This document shows positions 4,761-17,946 of a stretch of 32,113 bases of DNA, piece after piece. The stretch comes from a virus: IMG/VR virus record IMGVR_UViG_3300032722_001737. One strand, given 5' to 3'. The position numbers were made by a program, and so were the translations under genes. The notes beneath the pieces are model-generated. The model made no database searches. It worked only from the letters and a program-made list of their open reading frames with translations, and had not been told where the DNA came from. Position 1 is the stretch's first letter. Each line of letters begins with the position of its first letter.

Positions 4761-4964
4761 TCACTGCTTCGACTGACCAGTCTTCTTCGCCACACACACC
4801 ATTCTCGGTATTTCTGAGAACGTCAGATCATGCACTCTGTGCCATTCAGACACGATGCCACACTTACGACAAGTATCATCCTGTTCGAGGAGCTTAACAA
4901 TACTGTCGCCTCTCGTGCTGTATTCGTCTAGTTTATGCATGTTCACTTTCGTATGTAGTGCCAT
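4761..4964 (-). CDS. small zinc-ribbon protein (67 aa, CRKCG)
   Basis: Contains a CxxC motif. Overlaps the upstream gene end. Confidence 0.4.
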   Translation of the reverse strand: MALHTKVNMHKLDEYSTRGDSIVKLLEQDDTCRKCGIVSEWHRVHDLTFSEIPRMVCVAKKTGQSKQ

Positions 4965-5494
4965 CGATCTGTGTCAAAACGCGTGGGTCGACGTGCTGCA
5001 CAACCGATGTCCTTGCACATGAGCGTCCCGTCGCAGGAGTGTTCGAGTCCCATGGCATGCCCAATTTCATGAGCGAATGTGATGACCATCTGGTCAGGCG
5101 TGTAGTCCTCATTCGCGTAGATGAACTGCCGGACAGTGACGTCAGCGTGGCCCGTGAAATCGTTCCACACCGTCTTCCCCAGAGGTGAGAACTCCCCGCC
5201 TGGGTGGATGCAGATCTCCCTAGGCTCGTAGGTGCACTGCGTGATCCTCACCTCGTCGAACGGCTTGTCGTAAGGCAGTGCCTTCTCCCAATCAGAGATT
5301 GCCTCCTCTATCAGTGCGATGTCAGTGCTCGAGAATGCAGGGTCGATGTCTACGTTGTAGGAGCTCGGCGGCTTGTCGACTGGCTTCATCCCCTCGACGA
5401 GGCACACGGCGCCGCCGCAGCTCGCGAGCACCGCGACAGTCATGAGCGCCAGCGTCACCCTGCTCGGTGATTCACAACGTTCCCTTCTTTTCAT
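4943..5494 (-). CDS. secreted lipoprotein zinc metalloprotease (metzincin, HEIGHAMGLEH)
   Basis: HExxHxxGxxH motif. Signal peptide with lipobox LASC. ATGA overlap with the upstream HE gene. Confidence 0.8.
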   Translation of the reverse strand: MKRRERCESPSRVTLALMTVAVLASCGGAVCLVEGMKPVDKPPSSYNVDIDPAFSSTDIALIEEAISDWEKALPYDKPFDEVRITQCTYEPREICIHPGGEFSPLGKTVWNDFTGHADVTVRQFIYANEDYTPDQMVITFAHEIGHAMGLEHSCDGTLMCKDIGCAARRPTRFDTDRWHYIRK

Positions 5495-6159
5495 TCACAT
5501 GCACCCACGTCCAATGTATTGGATGGCCTAATACGTTGGTCTAAAGAGTTATCTTGGGCCAACGTGGGAGCCGTGGTGGCCAATTTAGAGGCCTTATGGG
5601 CTGCCCAATAAGCTTTGACACCTTCACTGATATTCTTACGTGATTCTAGCGATCTTTTTTGTCCACGTAACGTTTTGCTGAGATTTGCTTTTTCTACGTC
5701 TGAAAGACGTCGCTTTGATGCAGCAATCGAAAGTCGTTGACGCGTTATTTCACTACGTTTTTCTCCCTTACATTTTCTTTGCGCATCAGCCATTCGTTTT
5801 CTTGTGAATTCAGAAGGAGGTTCGCGTCTCCGTCGTTTTTCGCTCATTTTGAGTTTAGATTCAGGACTAGCGTTTAATACGCCTTCGCCTCCATCAGTCA
5901 AATTCGATCCCCAGTGACCCTCAAGACCATGGTGAGTTTTCAACAGTGCAATCAATTCGACTTCACGGTCAAGTGCCCATCGTTCAACGAGCGTCTCAAA
6001 AACGATGATGCGTTTCTTGTGGCCGTGTTTTGCAACAATATTCTTCCAAATCACGTTACGAGGTTTGACATTTTTCAGACGTCGCTTGTTGCCCTTTCCA
6101 ACATAGAAAGGTCGATCATCACTTGTGATATCAATGTAAGTGTAATAACGTTTGAACAT
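5491..6159 (-). mobile_element. GIY-YIG homing endonuclease (222 aa) with NUMOD-like basic repeats, in an AT-rich island
   Basis: Motifs YTYIDI...FYVGKG...R...E...N(TDGGEG) and basic NUMOD3-like repeats. ATGA overlaps at both ends. Confidence 0.85.
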
Positions 6160-6569
6160 CACGTTTCTTCCATTCCCTTCTCTGCCATGATCTCCTTGAG
6201 AAGGTTTCCCAACTCGACGTATTTTGAACCGAGAGTCACGATGTCGACCTTGCTGAGTCGCTTCACGTCGTAGGAACATACGTACTTGGGACGCTTTGTG
6301 CCGAGACCAAAGAAGTCGAACACAGGTTGCAGTTGAACGTATCCCTCCTTCTCGCGAAGTTGGACGCGCTTGCCGTTGAAGTCGCGATAGATACGTACAC
6401 TCCTCCTGTACCTGCGACCTGCTACTACCTTGACGTACTCTTCCTCGGGTTTGACAGGGACGGGCGCATGCTCACGCACGATCCTGTAGATCTCACCGCC
6501 CCAGCTCGCAGCTCTGACACAGACGAAGTCACCCTCAGCTAGGTTGTATTCAGCGAGCGTGCGTGTCAT
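6159..6569 (-). CDS. hypothetical protein (136 aa)
   Basis: Translationally coupled (ATGA) to the HE gene. Confidence 0.55.
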   Translation of the reverse strand: MTRTLAEYNLAEGDFVCVRAASWGGEIYRIVREHAPVPVKPEEEYVKVVAGRRYRRSVRIYRDFNGKRVQLREKEGYVQLQPVFDFFGLGTKRPKYVCSYDVKRLSKVDIVTLGSKYVELGNLLKEIMAEKGMEET

Positions 6570-7203
6570 TCTCTTCCTCGATGATGTGTGACCATTTCTT
6601 CATGAGCTCAGTTCCCACCGCCTTTTCCATCAACAACTTGCTTTCTGCGCTGATCCCGACGGGCGTGGATCGCTTGCCAAATGCAGATCGTAGCCAAGAT
6701 CGAAAAGATGACAGCCTCGATTGCGTGCGTGTGATCAACCATCTGATGCCCTTCCATATCATCTTAACCCATGCAGGCCCGGAATTGCATCTCCTGTCGA
6801 GCCATGTTTCCATGCCCGGGTACTTGTAGTCAAGGTAGAAGATTCCTCCGACAGGTATCGTCATGGGTTGGATTGAAACGAGTTGTGGAGCACGTAGTAG
6901 TGGGAACGTACTCCTGACGAGAGGAAGCGCGAATTGCCCGAAGCCAGTGAAGTGCTTCGGTTCCTTACTCCACAACACGGTGATCTGCCTTACAACATTA
7001 CTTTCGTACTCCACGGCAATGACGATGCCGAGGGAGCTGCGGTCGCCAGTGTGGGCAATCGTCCCCGCGTGGTACACCCAGTCACCGGGCGTGAGCGTGT
7101 TTCCTGCGTCCTTCGGATCGAAGTGACAGATGCAGGATGGATGATCGTACCTGGTGAAAGGCGTTTCTACGTCAGGCCTCGTGTACGTCTTGAGCGAGCT
7201 CAC
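6550..7203 (-). CDS. paralog family A (217 aa): LKTYT N-terminus, PGDWV...GIVIAVEYESNVVRQITVLWS core
   Basis: Shares the core motif with the genes at 7200, 7498, 7800 and 12481. Confidence 0.55.
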   Translation of the reverse strand: MSSLKTYTRPDVETPFTRYDHPSCICHFDPKDAGNTLTPGDWVYHAGTIAHTGDRSSLGIVIAVEYESNVVRQITVLWSKEPKHFTGFGQFALPLVRSTFPLLRAPQLVSIQPMTIPVGGIFYLDYKYPGMETWLDRRCNSGPAWVKMIWKGIRWLITRTQSRLSSFRSWLRSAFGKRSTPVGISAESKLLMEKAVGTELMKKWSHIIEEENDTHAR

Positions 7204-7505
7204 TTTTTCTTCTCTTCTGGGATGTCAAGTACGTTGATTGTCCCGTAGAAATCCTTCCTAATCTTGGATTTCTCGTAGCGAGGAAGGATCCCTTTCCTCA
7301 TTGTGAAGACGTTCGGATCGAACCACAACGCTAGCTTTGGGACAGTCGACCACAACACGCTGATGTTTGTGGCATCCAAAGACGTGACAATGCCGAACGC
7401 TTCCTCATCCTGACTGTGTATGACAAGCGCGCCTGGAACGAGCGGCTTACCATCCACCACGATGAGAGGATGTGAGTCTGTTTCGTAGATGCGTAGCTCA
7501 CCCAT
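7200..7505 (-). CDS. paralog family B (about 101 aa): FGIVTSLDATNISVLWS
   Basis: Motif conserved. ATGA overlap at 7200-7203. Confidence 0.5.
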   Translation of the reverse strand: MGELRIYETDSHPLIVVDGKPLVPGALVIHSQDEEAFGIVTSLDATNISVLWSTVPKLALWFDPNVFTMRKGILPRYEKSKIRKDFYGTINVLDIPEEKKK

Positions 7506-7803
7506 CCTTTTTCTCCACGATCGCAAGCAGGTCTTTCATGATGTCTGCGTCGATCTGTTCTCGGATCTGCTCTGCTGCATTTGCGTTGACCCTCACGAGC
7601 AATTCAACGGGTATCGTCCACATGACATTTGCGGTCTCTGACTCAAGATCAGATGAGATGACGATGCCGTAAGAATCTGTCTCGCCCTTGTCCCGTTGAG
7701 ACGTACCGAAGAACACCATGTCTCCCGGGAGAGGTACGTAGTCCTTTGTGAAGGGCTCGTACGCTTCCTGAAGAAACCTGAACTCTTCGGTGGTGAACTT
7801 CAT
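7498..7803 (-). CDS. paralog family C (101 aa): PGDMV...YGIVISSDLESETANVMWT
   Basis: ATG at 7803 makes an ATGA overlap with the upstream gene. Confidence 0.55.
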   Translation of the reverse strand: MKFTTEEFRFLQEAYEPFTKDYVPLPGDMVFFGTSQRDKGETDSYGIVISSDLESETANVMWTIPVELLVRVNANAAEQIREQIDADIMKDLLAIVEKKDG

Positions 7804-8114
7804 GTTTTCTTTTCGATGCTGGAGTCGAGCGCTGCCTCGAGATCTTTCGACGAAAGATTCCAACCAGAAGCAGACCTGAAGTCCTCCGCTGACTCAACTG
7901 TCCACGTAGCATCAAGCTTCCGTGACGTTGAGTTGATGCTCCACAGGACAGTGATCTGATACTCATCGTTCCTGTCAATTGCGATGACTAGTCCTTGGAC
8001 GTTGTCGTACCGGTGCTTGACGGCATCGCCAGGCTTTGCGTCGAGGGCGATGACAGACGCTTCGTCGGTCACTTCATCGAACTTGAACCCGGTGTACGTT
8101 TTGAGTTGACTCAC
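7800..8114 (-). CDS. paralog family D (104 aa, GTG start): SQLKTYT...PGDAV...QGLVIAIDRNDEYQITVLWS
   Basis: GTG at 8114 lies 5 nt after AGGGGGA and gives a GTGA overlap with the upstream stop. Confidence 0.55.
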   Translation of the reverse strand: MSQLKTYTGFKFDEVTDEASVIALDAKPGDAVKHRYDNVQGLVIAIDRNDEYQITVLWSINSTSRKLDATWTVESAEDFRSASGWNLSSKDLEAALDSSIEKKT

Positions 8115-8431
8115 TCCATCCCCCTGCGCTTTGCTTCTTCGAGTATGACATTGTCGAGCCTCGTCCTCATCGTTGCTAGCTCCAGGAGCGTGACGTGGTG
8201 CCATCCTGACGGCGTCATTGTCTGCGTACGACACATCACAGGCCACATGAAACCGACAGTGTCAATGACCGGGTCAAATGTGAAGTGATGCGTGTGCCTT
8301 AGGTCCCGGCGCGTCGATGCTTCGATGTGCGTTAGCCTGTAGATCTGACCGGTGTGATCACGATCGTACAGTTCATTCAGGAAGAACTCCCTGCCGTCGT
8401 ACTCCCCACTCAGAAGGCTTTCTTCATCCAT
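8111..8431 (-). CDS. hypothetical protein (106 aa), first gene after the MVP terminator
   Basis: Upstream elements are TATGAT, a 17-nt spacer and a GAGG SD. Confidence 0.55.
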   Translation of the reverse strand: MDEESLLSGEYDGREFFLNELYDRDHTGQIYRLTHIEASTRRDLRHTHHFTFDPVIDTVGFMWPVMCRTQTMTPSGWHHVTLLELATMRTRLDNVILEEAKRRGME

Positions 8432-8457: not shown

Positions 8458-8494
8458 CATCGGGCCGCGAAGGACATGCCCCCGCGGCCCGATG
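8458..8494 (-). terminator. perfect 12-bp GC-rich stem-loop (CATCGGGCCGCG / 13-nt loop / CGCGGCCCGATG) downstream of the MVP stop; no U-tract
   Basis: Seen directly in the sequence. Sits between the MVP stop (8516) and the next gene start (8431). Confidence 0.6.
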
Positions 8495-17125: not shown

Positions 17126-17163
17126 TACTGAGGCTGCCTCTGCCACCTGGGCTAACGTCCCGG

Positions 17164-17235
17164 AGCCCACTGTCGGGTTTGAACCGACGACCGCCGGTTT
17201 ACAAAACCGGTGCTCTACCGCTGAGCTAAGTGGGC
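17164..17235 (-). tRNA. tRNA-Thr (anticodon UGU)
   Basis: Folds as a cloverleaf by hand. Acceptor GCCCACT/AGTGGGC, D-stem GCTC/GAGC, anticodon stem CCGGT/ACCGG with loop TTTGTAA, T-stem GTCGG/CCGAC with loop TTCAAAC. No encoded CCA. Confidence 0.85.
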
Positions 17236-17236
17236 T

Positions 17237-17274
17237 TGATTGTAGTGTGAGTGACCTTGAGATACAATCTTACC
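17237..17274 (+). promoter_or_regulatory. back-to-back TACAAT boxes: one 3 nt upstream of the tRNA 5' end (minus strand), one 6 nt upstream of the HE ATG (plus strand)
   Basis: attgta at 17240-17245 and tacaat at 17263-17268. Confidence 0.4.
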
Positions 17275-17946
17275 ATGGCACAAGTTACAAATACACAGCC
17301 ATCAGTTTACGTGATTGAGAATCTCATCAACGGGAGAGCGTACATAGGTTGGACAGTGAATGAAAAGCGTCGATGGTACAAGCATCGAACTGCCTCTAGA
17401 ACCGGTCGTTCTTACCTCTATCGTGCAATGCGTAAGCATGGTATCGAGAATTTCGTGATGCATCACGTTGATGATTATGAAACGCGTGATGCAGCAAAAG
17501 CAGGTGAAGTGGAATGGATCGCATACCTGCGCATGATGCGTGTCAAACTCTACAACGAGACTGACGGTGGCGACGGAACATCTGGAAGAAAGAATAGCCC
17601 AGAGACGATCGCAAAGATGAAAGCTGCACACAAAGGAAAGATCATCTCGCCCGAGCAACGGGCGCAAATCAGCAAAACACTGAAGAAGTTCAATGAAGAA
17701 ATTGGTATGTCGCCTGAAACGCGTGCTAAAATTTCAGAACGACTGAAAGGTAAACAGAAGCCTTTGCGTACGCCTGAACACTGCGAAAAATTACGTAAAG
17801 CTGCAATCGCTCGCGATTCTCACGTAACTTCAGATAAAACGCGTGAAAAGATGCGTCAAGCAGCTTACACACGCGAAGAACGCAAGAAACTTGGGCTCCC
17901 AAGCTTAAGAGAGCTCAAGCGTCAAGCGCGGCTCGACAAGAGTTAG
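17275..17946 (+). mobile_element. GIY-YIG homing endonuclease with NUMOD3 repeats (I-TevI/Seg-like), AT-rich
   Basis: Motifs VYVIENLINGRAYIGWT...R...H...E...N(ETDGGDG). Tandem SPE(Q/T)RAKIS NUMOD3 repeats. Confidence 0.85.

What the first reader, a model, noticed from the sequence alone, without database searches (positions are those of the whole stretch)
6550..8114. Tandem array of four diverged paralogs (plus further members at 12481 and 14231) right downstream of MVP
Consecutive ATGA-coupled genes share PGD.V...(G/Y)(I/L)VI(A/S).D......(I/V)(T/S)VLWS. They have variable N- and C-termini, and two share an LKTYT N-terminus. A related pair at 14905 and 15258 shares VLDSxTMRTGWIY. Local expansion with divergence is typical of phage host-interaction or anti-defence modules. 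Adjacency to MVP raises the speculative possibility of shell-associated or cargo proteins.
Basis: partly seen in the sequence, partly recalled or inferred. Interest (0 to 1): 0.6.

Follow-up and report, generated by a model that had tools for sequence, protein, structure and literature searches.

The report
Small proteins displaying capsid-protein fragments
The four tandem genes are real paralogs, and each fuses one conserved small beta-module to a different short piece copied from a T4-type major capsid protein; this conserved architecture of a clade of huge uncultivated phages has not been described before.

Summary
It fails for 14231-14863. The 14905/15258 pair is real.

The "variable C-termini" are fragments of a T4-type (gp23) major capsid protein (MCP). 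D carries the N-terminal "Gol" region (MCP 72-115). A carries the strand before the spine helix (about 296-332). B carries the spine helix (334-358). C carries the extreme C-terminus (507-540).

An exhaustive profile search and nine related metagenomic arrays show the same architecture. A roughly 60-residue N-module ("MSxLxTY...PGD.V...GIVIA.D...TVLWSxxP") is followed by an MCP fragment, and in one case by a portal fragment. The usual order is 2, 3, 6/7, 1. The arrays lie in huge phages, on contigs up to 369 kb, that also encode MVP and GroEL.

The tails are as conserved as the module, so they are under selection. No tail matches the MCP I-domain or the central stretch 363-481.

The function is unknown. 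My best guess (0.4) is head-protein segment mimicry acting by strand or helix complementation on T4-type head proteins. MVP linkage is loose clade-level synteny, and cargo status is unsupported. I found no described equivalent.

The parts
7800..8114 (-). Unit A (104 aa). N-module aa 1-59 (nt 7938-8114). Tail type 2, aa 60-85 (nt 7860-7937), 'INSTSRKLDATWTVESAEDF'. This corresponds to MCP about 296-332, the strand and linker just before the spine helix.
   Evidence: Pfam Gp23 20.7 bits, E 3e-4, below the gathering cut-off 24.4. PHROG 138 major head protein, E 0.003. Smith-Waterman z about 5 against two MCPs. Clade MCP HMM 8.3 bits, reached by 0 of 640 shuffles. Type-2 profile against the MCP profile, P 1e-3 to 3e-3. 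The orthologous type-2 tail in L198 scores 31.6 bits at MCP 300-335.
7498..7803 (-). Unit B (101 aa). N-module aa 1-63 (nt 7615-7803). Tail type 3, aa 70-92 (nt 7528-7596), 'AEQIREQIDADIMKDL'. This corresponds to the MCP spine helix (about 334-358).
   Evidence: Not detectable on its own. A profile of type-3 tails from six other genomes finds B at E 9e-8 in the window. The same profile aligns to MCP 336-358 with P 4.6e-4.
7200..7505 (-). Unit C (101 aa). N-module aa 1-53 (nt 7347-7505). Tail type 7, aa 58-97 (nt 7215-7334), 'LWFDPNVFTMRKGILPRYEKSKIRKDFYGTINV'. This corresponds to the extreme C-terminus of the MCP (507-540).
   Evidence: tblastn with the Mel-JY01 MCP, E 3e-6, 52% identity over 33 aa. 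Smith-Waterman z 9-14. MCP HMM E 2e-6. Type-6/7 profile against the MCP profile, E 2e-12.
6550..7203 (-). Unit D (217 aa). N-module aa 1-79 (nt 6967-7203). Tail type 1, aa 88-130 (nt 6814-6942), 'FALPLVRSTFPLLRAPQLVSIQPMTIPVGGIFYLDYKY'. This corresponds to MCP 72-115, which aligns to T4 gp23 residues 88-132 and so covers the Gol region. A C-terminal extension, aa 134-217 (nt 6553-6804), is a predicted helical hairpin.
   Evidence: Pfam Gp23 28.9 bits, above the gathering cut-off 24.4. PHROG 138, E 7.6e-7. tblastn hits to annotated MCPs of T4-like phages. MCP HMM E 1.4e-10. hhalign E 2e-16. Alignment of the same MCP columns to solved T4 gp23. The extension motif RRCxxGPxW recurs in L021, L022 and L190. 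AF2 gives pLDDT 84-97 for the module, below 50 for the tail and 66-83 for the helices.
12481..12741 (-). Unit E (86 aa). It has the same N-module, but its short tail 'NPLIMGWVFDGQLQKIKV' is not MCP-like. It lies just upstream of MVP, as it does in relatives.
   Evidence: Leave-one-out E 0.008. Independent family HMM E 7.7e-6. Orthologs are P0141, L019 8218-8640, L022 8901-9164 and L205. There is no MCP similarity.
8111..8431 (-). Leader gene of the array (106 aa, no module). Its stop codon overlaps the start of A.
   Evidence: An ortholog sits at the same position in L013 (45-374), read by eye. There is no Pfam hit.
6159..6569 (-). Trailing gene (136 aa). It has a GD.V-type N-terminal region and a conserved 'GYV.L.PVFDFF...VD.V.LG.KY.ELG' C-terminal part. 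It always follows the type-1 unit.
   Evidence: One to three copies follow the type-1 unit in L013, L016, L017 and L156, compared by eye. PHROG 23032, unknown function, E 0.003.
8516..11200 (-). MVP (major vault protein) homolog, 894 aa. It is a syntenic neighbour of the array and is not shown to be functionally linked.
   Evidence: Precomputed Pfam MVP_shoulder plus faint Vault repeats. 80 related metagenome loci at 38-73% identity. Arrays occur only near the closest ones.
8458..8494 (-). Perfect 12-bp inverted repeat with a 13-nt loop between MVP and the array. It has no T-run. It may be an RNA hairpin that sets relative expression.
   Evidence: It was not called as an intrinsic terminator.

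Best explanation
Each gene encodes a conserved N-terminal beta-module of about 55-80 residues. Its hallmarks are an N-terminal strand MSxLxTY, then PGD.V, GIVIA.D and TVLW(S/T)xxP. The module is fused at a fixed junction to a short segment copied from a T4-type head protein.

In the window the four tails are four different conserved segments of the gp23-type major capsid protein (MCP):
- the N-terminal 'Gol' region,
- the strand before the spine helix,
- the spine helix,
- the C-terminal strands.

The tails are predicted to be disordered on their own. I propose that they act as mimics of head-protein segments. They would bind by strand or helix complementation to the partner surfaces these segments normally contact. 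Those surfaces could be on an HK97-fold T4-type capsid protein, which would modulate, cap or poison its folding and assembly. Alternatively the co-translated tails could bind one another. The module would serve as a common handle or steric cap.

Shown: the anatomy, the homology of the tails, their conservation, and the array order.
Inferred: any binding at all, its direction (helping or inhibiting), and its target (the phage's own capsid protein, a rival phage's, or the sister tails).
For: 1. The tails are MCP fragments. See the hits listed per unit under 'parts'.

2. The architecture is a conserved family, not a local accident. A 48-position profile of the module searched against 1.84 billion proteins found, besides four of the window's own units, about 19 small proteins at E of 1e-3 or better. 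Their tails fall into the same MCP types. Arrays with the same unit types occur in L013, L016, L017, L019, L021, L022, L156, L186 and L190.

3. The tails are under purifying selection. Across six type-1 orthologs, mean identity is 40% in the tail against 35% in the folded module. The conserved tail residues (RR, QPM, P.G, FY.DY.Y) are those conserved in MCPs.

4. The represented segments are not random. Of 68 unique tails, 29 score at least 3 bits on the MCP HMM. All 29 fall in MCP 72-120, 292-335, 336-362 or 482-545. None falls in the I-domain (121-291) or the central stretch 363-481.

5. T4 structural work describes the N-terminal region and the I-domain linkers as elements stabilised by contacts with neighbouring subunits (PMC9546572). 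That is where a competing mimic would be expected to bind.

6. The tail is disordered in isolation (pLDDT below 50) next to a confident module.

7. The genes are translationally coupled and keep a recurrent order 2, 3, 6/7, 1, which fits co-production.

8. One unit (L156 2336-2719) carries a gp20-type portal fragment instead (PHROG 213, E 1.7e-4). Head proteins in general appear to be the source of the tails.
Against: - There is no functional or structural evidence for any binding.
- I could not show that these phages have a full-length gp23 or gp20 of their own. No complete MCP lies within 10 kb of any of the 80 MVP loci. The 369-kb contig could not be read in full.
- The array sits among small genes of unknown function rather than in a recognisable structural module.
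- About half of the tails match nothing.
- The bias toward conserved MCP segments is partly a detection effect. MelJY01/RM378 identity is 39% in the unrepresented stretch 363-481, against 44-61% in the represented segments.
- The spine helix is not an inter-subunit arm, so simple 'arm capping' does not explain type 3.
Confidence: 0.4

Rival explanations
1. Anti-defence decoys. The tails copy the conserved capsid and portal epitopes that bacterial immune sensors recognise. The fusion proteins would soak up or jam such sensors before the real structural proteins appear.
For: - D carries the region homologous to the T4 Gol region, a 29-residue stretch of gp23 that binds EF-Tu and triggers the Lit protease. 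It is the most conserved part of gp23 (PMC3014915; alignment).
- Capsid protein directly activates CapRel (PMC9712102, listed).
- From my own knowledge, portal proteins are the triggers of some Avs sensors, and one unit has a portal-like tail.
- The genes sit among many small genes and homing endonucleases.
Against: - A faithful Gol mimic should activate a Lit-type system, not block it.
- Known fold-level sensors recognise large surfaces, not 25-45-residue peptides.
- No defence or anti-defence family was matched, although PADLOC was not scanned.
- This reading does not explain the conserved colinear order or the co-retention of a set of complementary segments.
Confidence: 0.2
2. Evolutionary debris. 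A duplicated gp23/gp24-like gene was broken up by repeated in-frame insertion of a proliferating small-ORF module. The MCP-like tails are relics without a function of their own.
For: - The array order follows MCP order (2, 3, 6/7) with the N-terminal piece last. That is the order expected from a fragmented gene followed by the start of a tandem paralog, as in T4 genes 23 and 24 (the T4 gene order is from my own knowledge).
- The junction VLW(S/T)xxP is identical in all units.
- Module-like small genes are abundant in these genomes.
- Homing endonuclease genes flank the region.
Against: - The tails are at least as conserved as the module across genomes whose modules are only about 35% identical. 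They keep the MCP-invariant residues. Neutral relics would have decayed.
- The same tail types persist in at least nine arrays, including a high-GC lineage.
- Fragmentation may well be the origin. That does not make the present tails non-functional.
Confidence: 0.1
3. Vault-associated proteins. The module binds the phage MVP shell, as cargo or adaptor, and the tails recruit or display capsid-like peptides in or on the vault-like particle.
For: The order E-type unit, MVP, array recurs in the window, L017, L019, L022, L186 and L190. The array follows MVP after a hairpin in the window.
Against: - The distance to MVP varies from 0.1 to 8 kb.
- Several close MVP relatives with 10-kb flanks have no array: L188, L191, L193, L194.
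- None of the MVP loci at 50% identity or less has one.
- The module is unrelated to MVP by profile comparison (E 0.98).
- No cargo-targeting motif is known for bacterial or phage MVPs.
Confidence: 0.1

Closest known systems
T4 gp23 'Gol' region (activator of the Lit protease through EF-Tu)
   Same: The type-1 tail of D is homologous to this most conserved stretch of gp23 (MCP 72-115, aligning to T4 88-132). Published work shows that a short peptide from it is biologically active by itself (PMC3014915).
   Different: In T4 the region is part of the full capsid protein. Here it is a free-standing tail on an unrelated module. It is only one of at least four different head-protein segments displayed by paralogs. 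EF-Tu binding was not tested.
Ccm of SaPIbov5 and related capsid-redirecting proteins of phage satellites
   Same: It is a capsid-protein homolog encoded outside the normal structural role that acts on capsid assembly through homologous contacts (PMC8569155).
   Different: Ccm is a full-length HK97-fold homolog that co-assembles into shells. The units here carry only 20-50-residue fragments on a foreign module. They are encoded by huge phages, not satellites.
Donor-strand complementation by chaperones of chaperone-usher pili (PapD/FimC)
   Same: Mechanistic analogy only. A helper supplies a strand that a subunit normally receives from its neighbour, capping it until assembly. This rests on my own knowledge.
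   Different: There is no homology. The fold, the system and the direction of effect are all unverified here.
Genes split by mobile-element insertion in T4-like phages (for example T4 topoisomerase genes 39/60)
   Same: A conserved gene is cut into separately translated pieces next to homing endonuclease genes (PMC3014915).
   Different: In those cases the pieces together make the complete protein. Here most of the MCP is missing (I-domain, central 363-481) and every piece has acquired the same extra module.

Membership tests
Pfam PF07068 Gp23 (T4-type major capsid protein) | Whole-protein score above the curated gathering cut-off | tested here: met
   D scores 28.9 bits against a cut-off of 24.4. 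Five of 21 family members match, best E 1.4e-7. A scores 20.7 bits, below the cut-off.
Pfam PF07068 Gp23 (T4-type major capsid protein) | Complete HK97-type fold with A, P and I domains (about 450-540 residues) | tested here: not met
   Matches cover only 23-45 residues per protein: profile positions 4-46 in D and 140-182 in A. The four window tails cover MCP 72-115, 296-358 and 507-540. Across 68 tails, none matches 121-291 or 363-481. These proteins are fragments of a capsid protein, not capsid proteins.
SH3-like, KOW or Tudor small beta-barrels (for the N-module) | Significant sequence-profile match to a barrel family | tested here: inconclusive
   Only sub-threshold hits: SH3-B_UBE2O in 3 of 21 members (best 7.2e-5; B scores 19.4 bits against a cut-off of 22), Spt5 KOW at 0.04-0.07, and CarD RID at 0.1.
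SH3-like, KOW or Tudor small beta-barrels (for the N-module) | Structural match of a confident model | tested here: inconclusive
Inteins / HINT domains (considered because of the fixed junction ...VLW|S/T followed by an 'extein-like' conserved fragment) | C-terminal His-Asn followed by Cys/Ser/Thr, an N-terminal nucleophile, and a HINT fold of at least about 130 residues | tested here: not met
   The junction residue is Leu-Trp, not His-Asn. The module is 53-79 residues without a conserved N-terminal Cys or Ser. There is no Pfam intein or HINT hit. The feature list is from my own knowledge.
Vault (MVP) repeat domain or vault cargo | Homology of the module to MVP repeats, or a known vault-targeting domain | tested here: not met
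   hhalign of the module against the MVP alignment gives E 0.98. There is no Pfam Vault hit. Physical association is not testable with these tools.
T4 internal-protein capsid-targeting sequence (considered because of the N-terminal LKTY) | A free N-terminal roughly 10-residue peptide ending in a prohead-protease site | tested here: inconclusive
   In the AF2 model, residues 3-8 form a confident strand inside the module (pLDDT 93 for residues 1-10). That argues against a free targeting peptide. No protease site is conserved in the alignment. The T4 sequence is recalled from memory and was not verified.

The most novel reading that the evidence does not exclude
The array encodes a capsid protein in pieces. 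The co-translated tails (N-terminal strand, return strand, spine helix, C-terminal strands) would re-associate into an HK97-like core lacking the I-domain and the central part of the fold. The result would be a heteromeric particle that carries four or five N-modules. Huge phages could use it as a capsid-periphery mimic, for instance to nucleate, cap or decoy capsid assembly, possibly together with their vault-like MVP shell.
Probability: 0.12. Interest if true: 0.92.

Novelty: categorically new. Interest (0 to 1): 0.8.

Why it matters
If the tails work as proposed, this would be a natural system in which a virus displays short copies of the most conserved segments of head proteins on a common carrier domain. 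It would give a direct handle on three things: which capsid segments are autonomous interaction elements; how very large T4-type capsids are controlled, or how rival phages are poisoned; and whether the Gol region has a conserved role beyond T4. It also offers ready-made peptide reagents against T4-type capsid assembly.

Even if the function turns out to be different, the family documents an unusual route of gene evolution. A capsid gene was fragmented and each piece was re-used, and the result was kept under selection across a clade of huge phages that also encode MVP and GroEL.

Tried and rejected
Searches that found nothing:
- Megablast of 6 kb against 50,697 phage records gave no match.
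- Word-indexed protein searches with D, and with the four concatenated tails, returned only the window's own proteins.
- A single-sequence MVP scan of IMG/VR found nothing. The alignment-based scan did work.
- phmmer of D and C against PDB sequences gave only chance hits.
- tblastn of a module against GenBank phages gave only chance hits.

Search for the clade's own MCP. Distant MVP-bearing huge phages LR756500 and LR756501 have no array or MCP within 17-20 kb of MVP.

Hypotheses rejected:
- Readthrough or frameshift fusion. G_AAA_AAG motifs occur at the B/C and C/D junctions. The required shifts differ (the B-to-C shift is +1, not -1), and the purine runs are adequately explained as ribosome-binding sites.
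- Exons separated by introns. The 'intervening' parts are conserved as protein, not as DNA.
- Intein-like splicing (see the membership test).
- T4-like capsid-targeting sequence (see the membership test).
- Homology of the module to MCP or MVP.

Unresolved tails. The 'RYNPLS.DEDIYIP' tails and the '..SKKTLMEKFGLDP' tails could not be assigned (hhalign E 0.47 and 0.14; PHROGs).

dN/dS could not be computed. All copies of this phage are about 100% identical. Orthologs in other phages are too diverged for codon alignment.
Full report
**Observation.** The minus strand downstream of the 894-aa MVP homolog (8516-11200) carries six genes in a row:
- a 106-aa gene (8111-8431),
- four genes of 104, 101, 101 and 217 aa: A 7800-8114, B 7498-7803, C 7200-7505 and D 6550-7203,
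- a 136-aa gene (6159-6569).

The junctions are stop/start overlaps: GTGA, ATGA, an 8-nt overlap, and GTGA. Gene callers on five independent metagenome contigs made the same calls.

Pairwise similarity among A-D is weak, but they are each other's top hits. In leave-one-out profile searches against 497 real and 2485 shuffled ORFs, the omitted member was always the best non-training hit (E from 6e-6 to 0.03). The gene at 12481-12741 (E) is a member as well. A family profile that never saw it scores it at 7.7e-6. The gene at 14231-14863 is not a member. The pair at 14905 and 15258 is related (E about 1e-5).

**What the variable C-termini are.** Pfam and PHROGs unexpectedly matched D, and more weakly A, to the T4 major capsid protein family Gp23. 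D scores 28.9 bits against a curated cut-off of 24.4, at profile positions 4-46. A scores 20.7 bits at positions 140-182. tblastn of D against phage genomes hits annotated major capsid proteins of T4-like phages.

I then searched the window with the capsid proteins of Microcystis phage Mel-JY01 and Rhodothermus phage RM378. Three different genes each matched a different part of the capsid protein:
- D matched residues about 70-122 (E 2e-10).
- C matched the extreme C-terminus, 504-536 (E 3e-6).
- A matched 304-339 (E 0.15).

A profile built from 120 capsid proteins confirmed D (1.4e-10) and C (2e-6). It placed A first among the rest. No other ORF of the window scored.

**A conserved family.** The locus itself has no close relatives. 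All metagenome copies are about 100% identical, and word-indexed searches find only self.

An exhaustive HMMER search of 1.84 billion proteins with a 48-position profile of the module found, besides four of the window's own units, about 19 small proteins (79-159 aa) at E of 1e-3 or better. They share three features: the N-terminal MSxLxTY strand, the PGD.V / GIVIA.D / TVLWS core, and a fixed junction VLW(S/T)xxP. Their tails fall into the same capsid-protein types.

Their contigs, plus loci fetched through the MVP gene, gave nine further arrays: L013, L016, L017, L019, L021, L022, L156, L186 and L190.

Profile-profile comparison of each tail type with the capsid alignment gave the following:

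| Type | MCP positions | Result |
|---|---|---|
| 1 | 72-114 | E 2e-16 |
| 6/7 | 487-544 | E 2e-12 |
| 2 | 296-332 | P about 1e-3 |
| 3 | 334-358, spine helix | P 5e-4 to 1e-3 |

A type-3 profile built without window B still finds B at 9e-8. A type-2 tail in L198 scores 31.6 bits on its own. So A, B, C and D carry capsid segments 2, 3, 7 and 1.

One unit of L156 has a gp20-type portal fragment instead (PHROG 213, E 1.7e-4). The top tblastn hits for that tail are gp20 portals but are not significant.

**Anatomy and selection.** With a 21-sequence alignment, AlphaFold2 models the module of D confidently (pLDDT 84-97; strands 3-8, 25-27, 42-45, 54-67 and 70-78). It models the capsid-like tail as disordered (pLDDT below 50). 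It models the D-specific C-terminal extension as a helical hairpin. That extension, with an RRCxxGPxW motif, recurs in L021, L022 and L190.

Across six type-1 orthologs, the tail is on average 40% identical and the module 35%. The conserved tail residues are those conserved in capsid proteins. The tails are therefore maintained by selection.

Of 68 unique tails, 29 score at least 3 bits on the capsid profile. All 29 lie in 72-120, 292-335, 336-362 or 482-545. None lies in the I-domain or in 363-481. This is partly a detection bias, because the represented segments are the most conserved.

Alignment to solved T4 gp23 puts type 1 on T4 residues 88-132. This is the Gol region, which the T4 literature calls the most conserved part of gp23. 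T4 head structures describe the N-terminal region and the I-domain linkers as elements fixed by contacts with neighbouring subunits.

**Order and context.** Arrays usually run 2, 3 (or an unassigned type), 6/7, then 1, followed by one to three copies of the 136-aa trailing gene. L013 and L017 show local swaps. The order is roughly that of the capsid protein with the N-terminal piece last. This fits an origin by fragmentation of a capsid gene, perhaps a tandem pair.

The phages are huge. Contigs reach 369 kb. They share a block of E-type unit, MVP, array, NinI-like phosphatase, IF1/eIF-1A-like protein and GroEL.

Of 80 MVP loci in metagenomes, only the closest (at least 61% identity) have arrays, and about half of those with enough flank do. 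The MVP link is therefore clade-level synteny, not a tight couple. The module is unrelated to MVP or to the capsid protein, and is absent from GenBank phages at tblastn sensitivity.

**Interpretation.**
- Shown: a new family of small proteins that fuse one module to different fragments of T4-type head proteins. The family is conserved, and its members are arranged in coupled arrays.
- Inferred: function.

I favour segment mimicry acting by complementation on HK97-type head proteins, or among the tails themselves (0.4).

Rival explanations:
- Decoys for immune sensors of capsid and portal (0.2). A true Gol mimic should, however, trigger rather than block a Lit-type system.
- Relics of a fragmented gene (0.1). 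The conservation of the tails contradicts this.
- Vault cargo (0.1). Only loose synteny supports it.

Whether these phages have their own gp23 could not be determined.

**Comparison with known systems.** The nearest are:
- the Gol peptide of gp23, which is the same sequence region in a different context;
- the capsid-protein homolog Ccm of SaPIbov5, which acts on assembly but is a full-length protein;
- split genes of T4-like phages, whose pieces still sum to the whole protein;
- donor-strand complementation, as an analogy only.

Searches of the paper library and all the sequence and family libraries used turned up nothing that describes this architecture.

Noticed in passing
window 8516-11200 (-); L185-L264: A full-length major vault protein homolog (MVP_shoulder plus faint Vault repeats). 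Relatives at 38-73% identity occur on 80 metagenome contigs, several of 180-570 kb. Relatives at 40% identity occur in the huge phages LR756500, LR756501 and LR756503. Phage MVPs seem far more widespread than the two gut phages reported in a 2023 preprint (10.1101/2023.11.10.566534).
   Followed up: partly
L156 2336-2719: One family member carries a fragment of a T4-type portal protein (gp20; PHROG 213, E 1.7e-4) in place of a capsid fragment. The unassigned '..SKKTLMEKFGLDP' tails (P0140, P0143, L019, L022) occupy the same array position and look similar by eye.
   Followed up: partly
window 6159-6569 (-); L013 1884-2721; L017 10964-12212; L156 3253-3609: A second conserved small-protein family ('GD.V...IYR.V' N-terminus, 'GYV.L.PVFDFF', 'VD.V.LG.KY.ELG') always follows the type-1 unit, in one to three copies. 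Its function is unknown (PHROG 23032, E 0.003).
   Followed up: partly
window 6553-6804 (-), D residues 134-217: D has a Trp/Arg-rich extension predicted as a helical hairpin. Its RRCxxGPxW motif is conserved in L021, L022 and L190 but missing from other type-1 units. It may be an amphipathic or coiled-coil element.
   Followed up: partly
L008 4668-6311 and 2029-3462 (about 4-8 kb beyond the window start): The phage encodes its own GroEL-type chaperonin (547 aa, Cpn60_TCP1) and an AAA+ ATPase (477 aa). GroEL, a NinI-like phosphatase and an IF1/eIF-1A-like protein are syntenic with the array in relatives. Two relatives (L016, L017) also carry an M24 peptidase there.
   Followed up: partly
window 5491-6279 (-), 11365-11991 (+), 17251-17946 (+): Three GIY-YIG-type homing endonuclease-like genes with NUMOD3-like repeats. 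One lies between the E-type unit and MVP, and one just downstream of the array's trailing gene.
   Followed up: no
window 4943-5494 (-): A 183-aa protein with a lipoprotein-like signal peptide (…LASCGG) and a metzincin motif HEIGHAMGLEH (weak Reprolysin_5 hit). It is probably a secreted zinc protease.
   Followed up: no
window 14905-15222 and 15258-15461 (-); also 235-495, 12738-13225; L016 and L017 small ORFs: Many further small ORFs share a looser pattern, 'PGD.V ... hydrophobic strand ... GW(I/V)..L.K'. This is a broader family of module-like proteins with a native last strand instead of a capsid tail. Most are only marginal by HMM (E 0.03-0.1 for 12959-13228 and 14908-15222).
   Followed up: partly
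window 17162-17235 (-): tRNA-Thr (anticodon TGT).
   Followed up: no
L013 371-1155: In this relative a type-3 unit, a type-2 unit and a type-7 unit run together. One frame change falls inside the type-2 module, and the protein P0126 carries two units. Either the assembly has a frameshift or natural multi-unit fusions exist.
   Followed up: no
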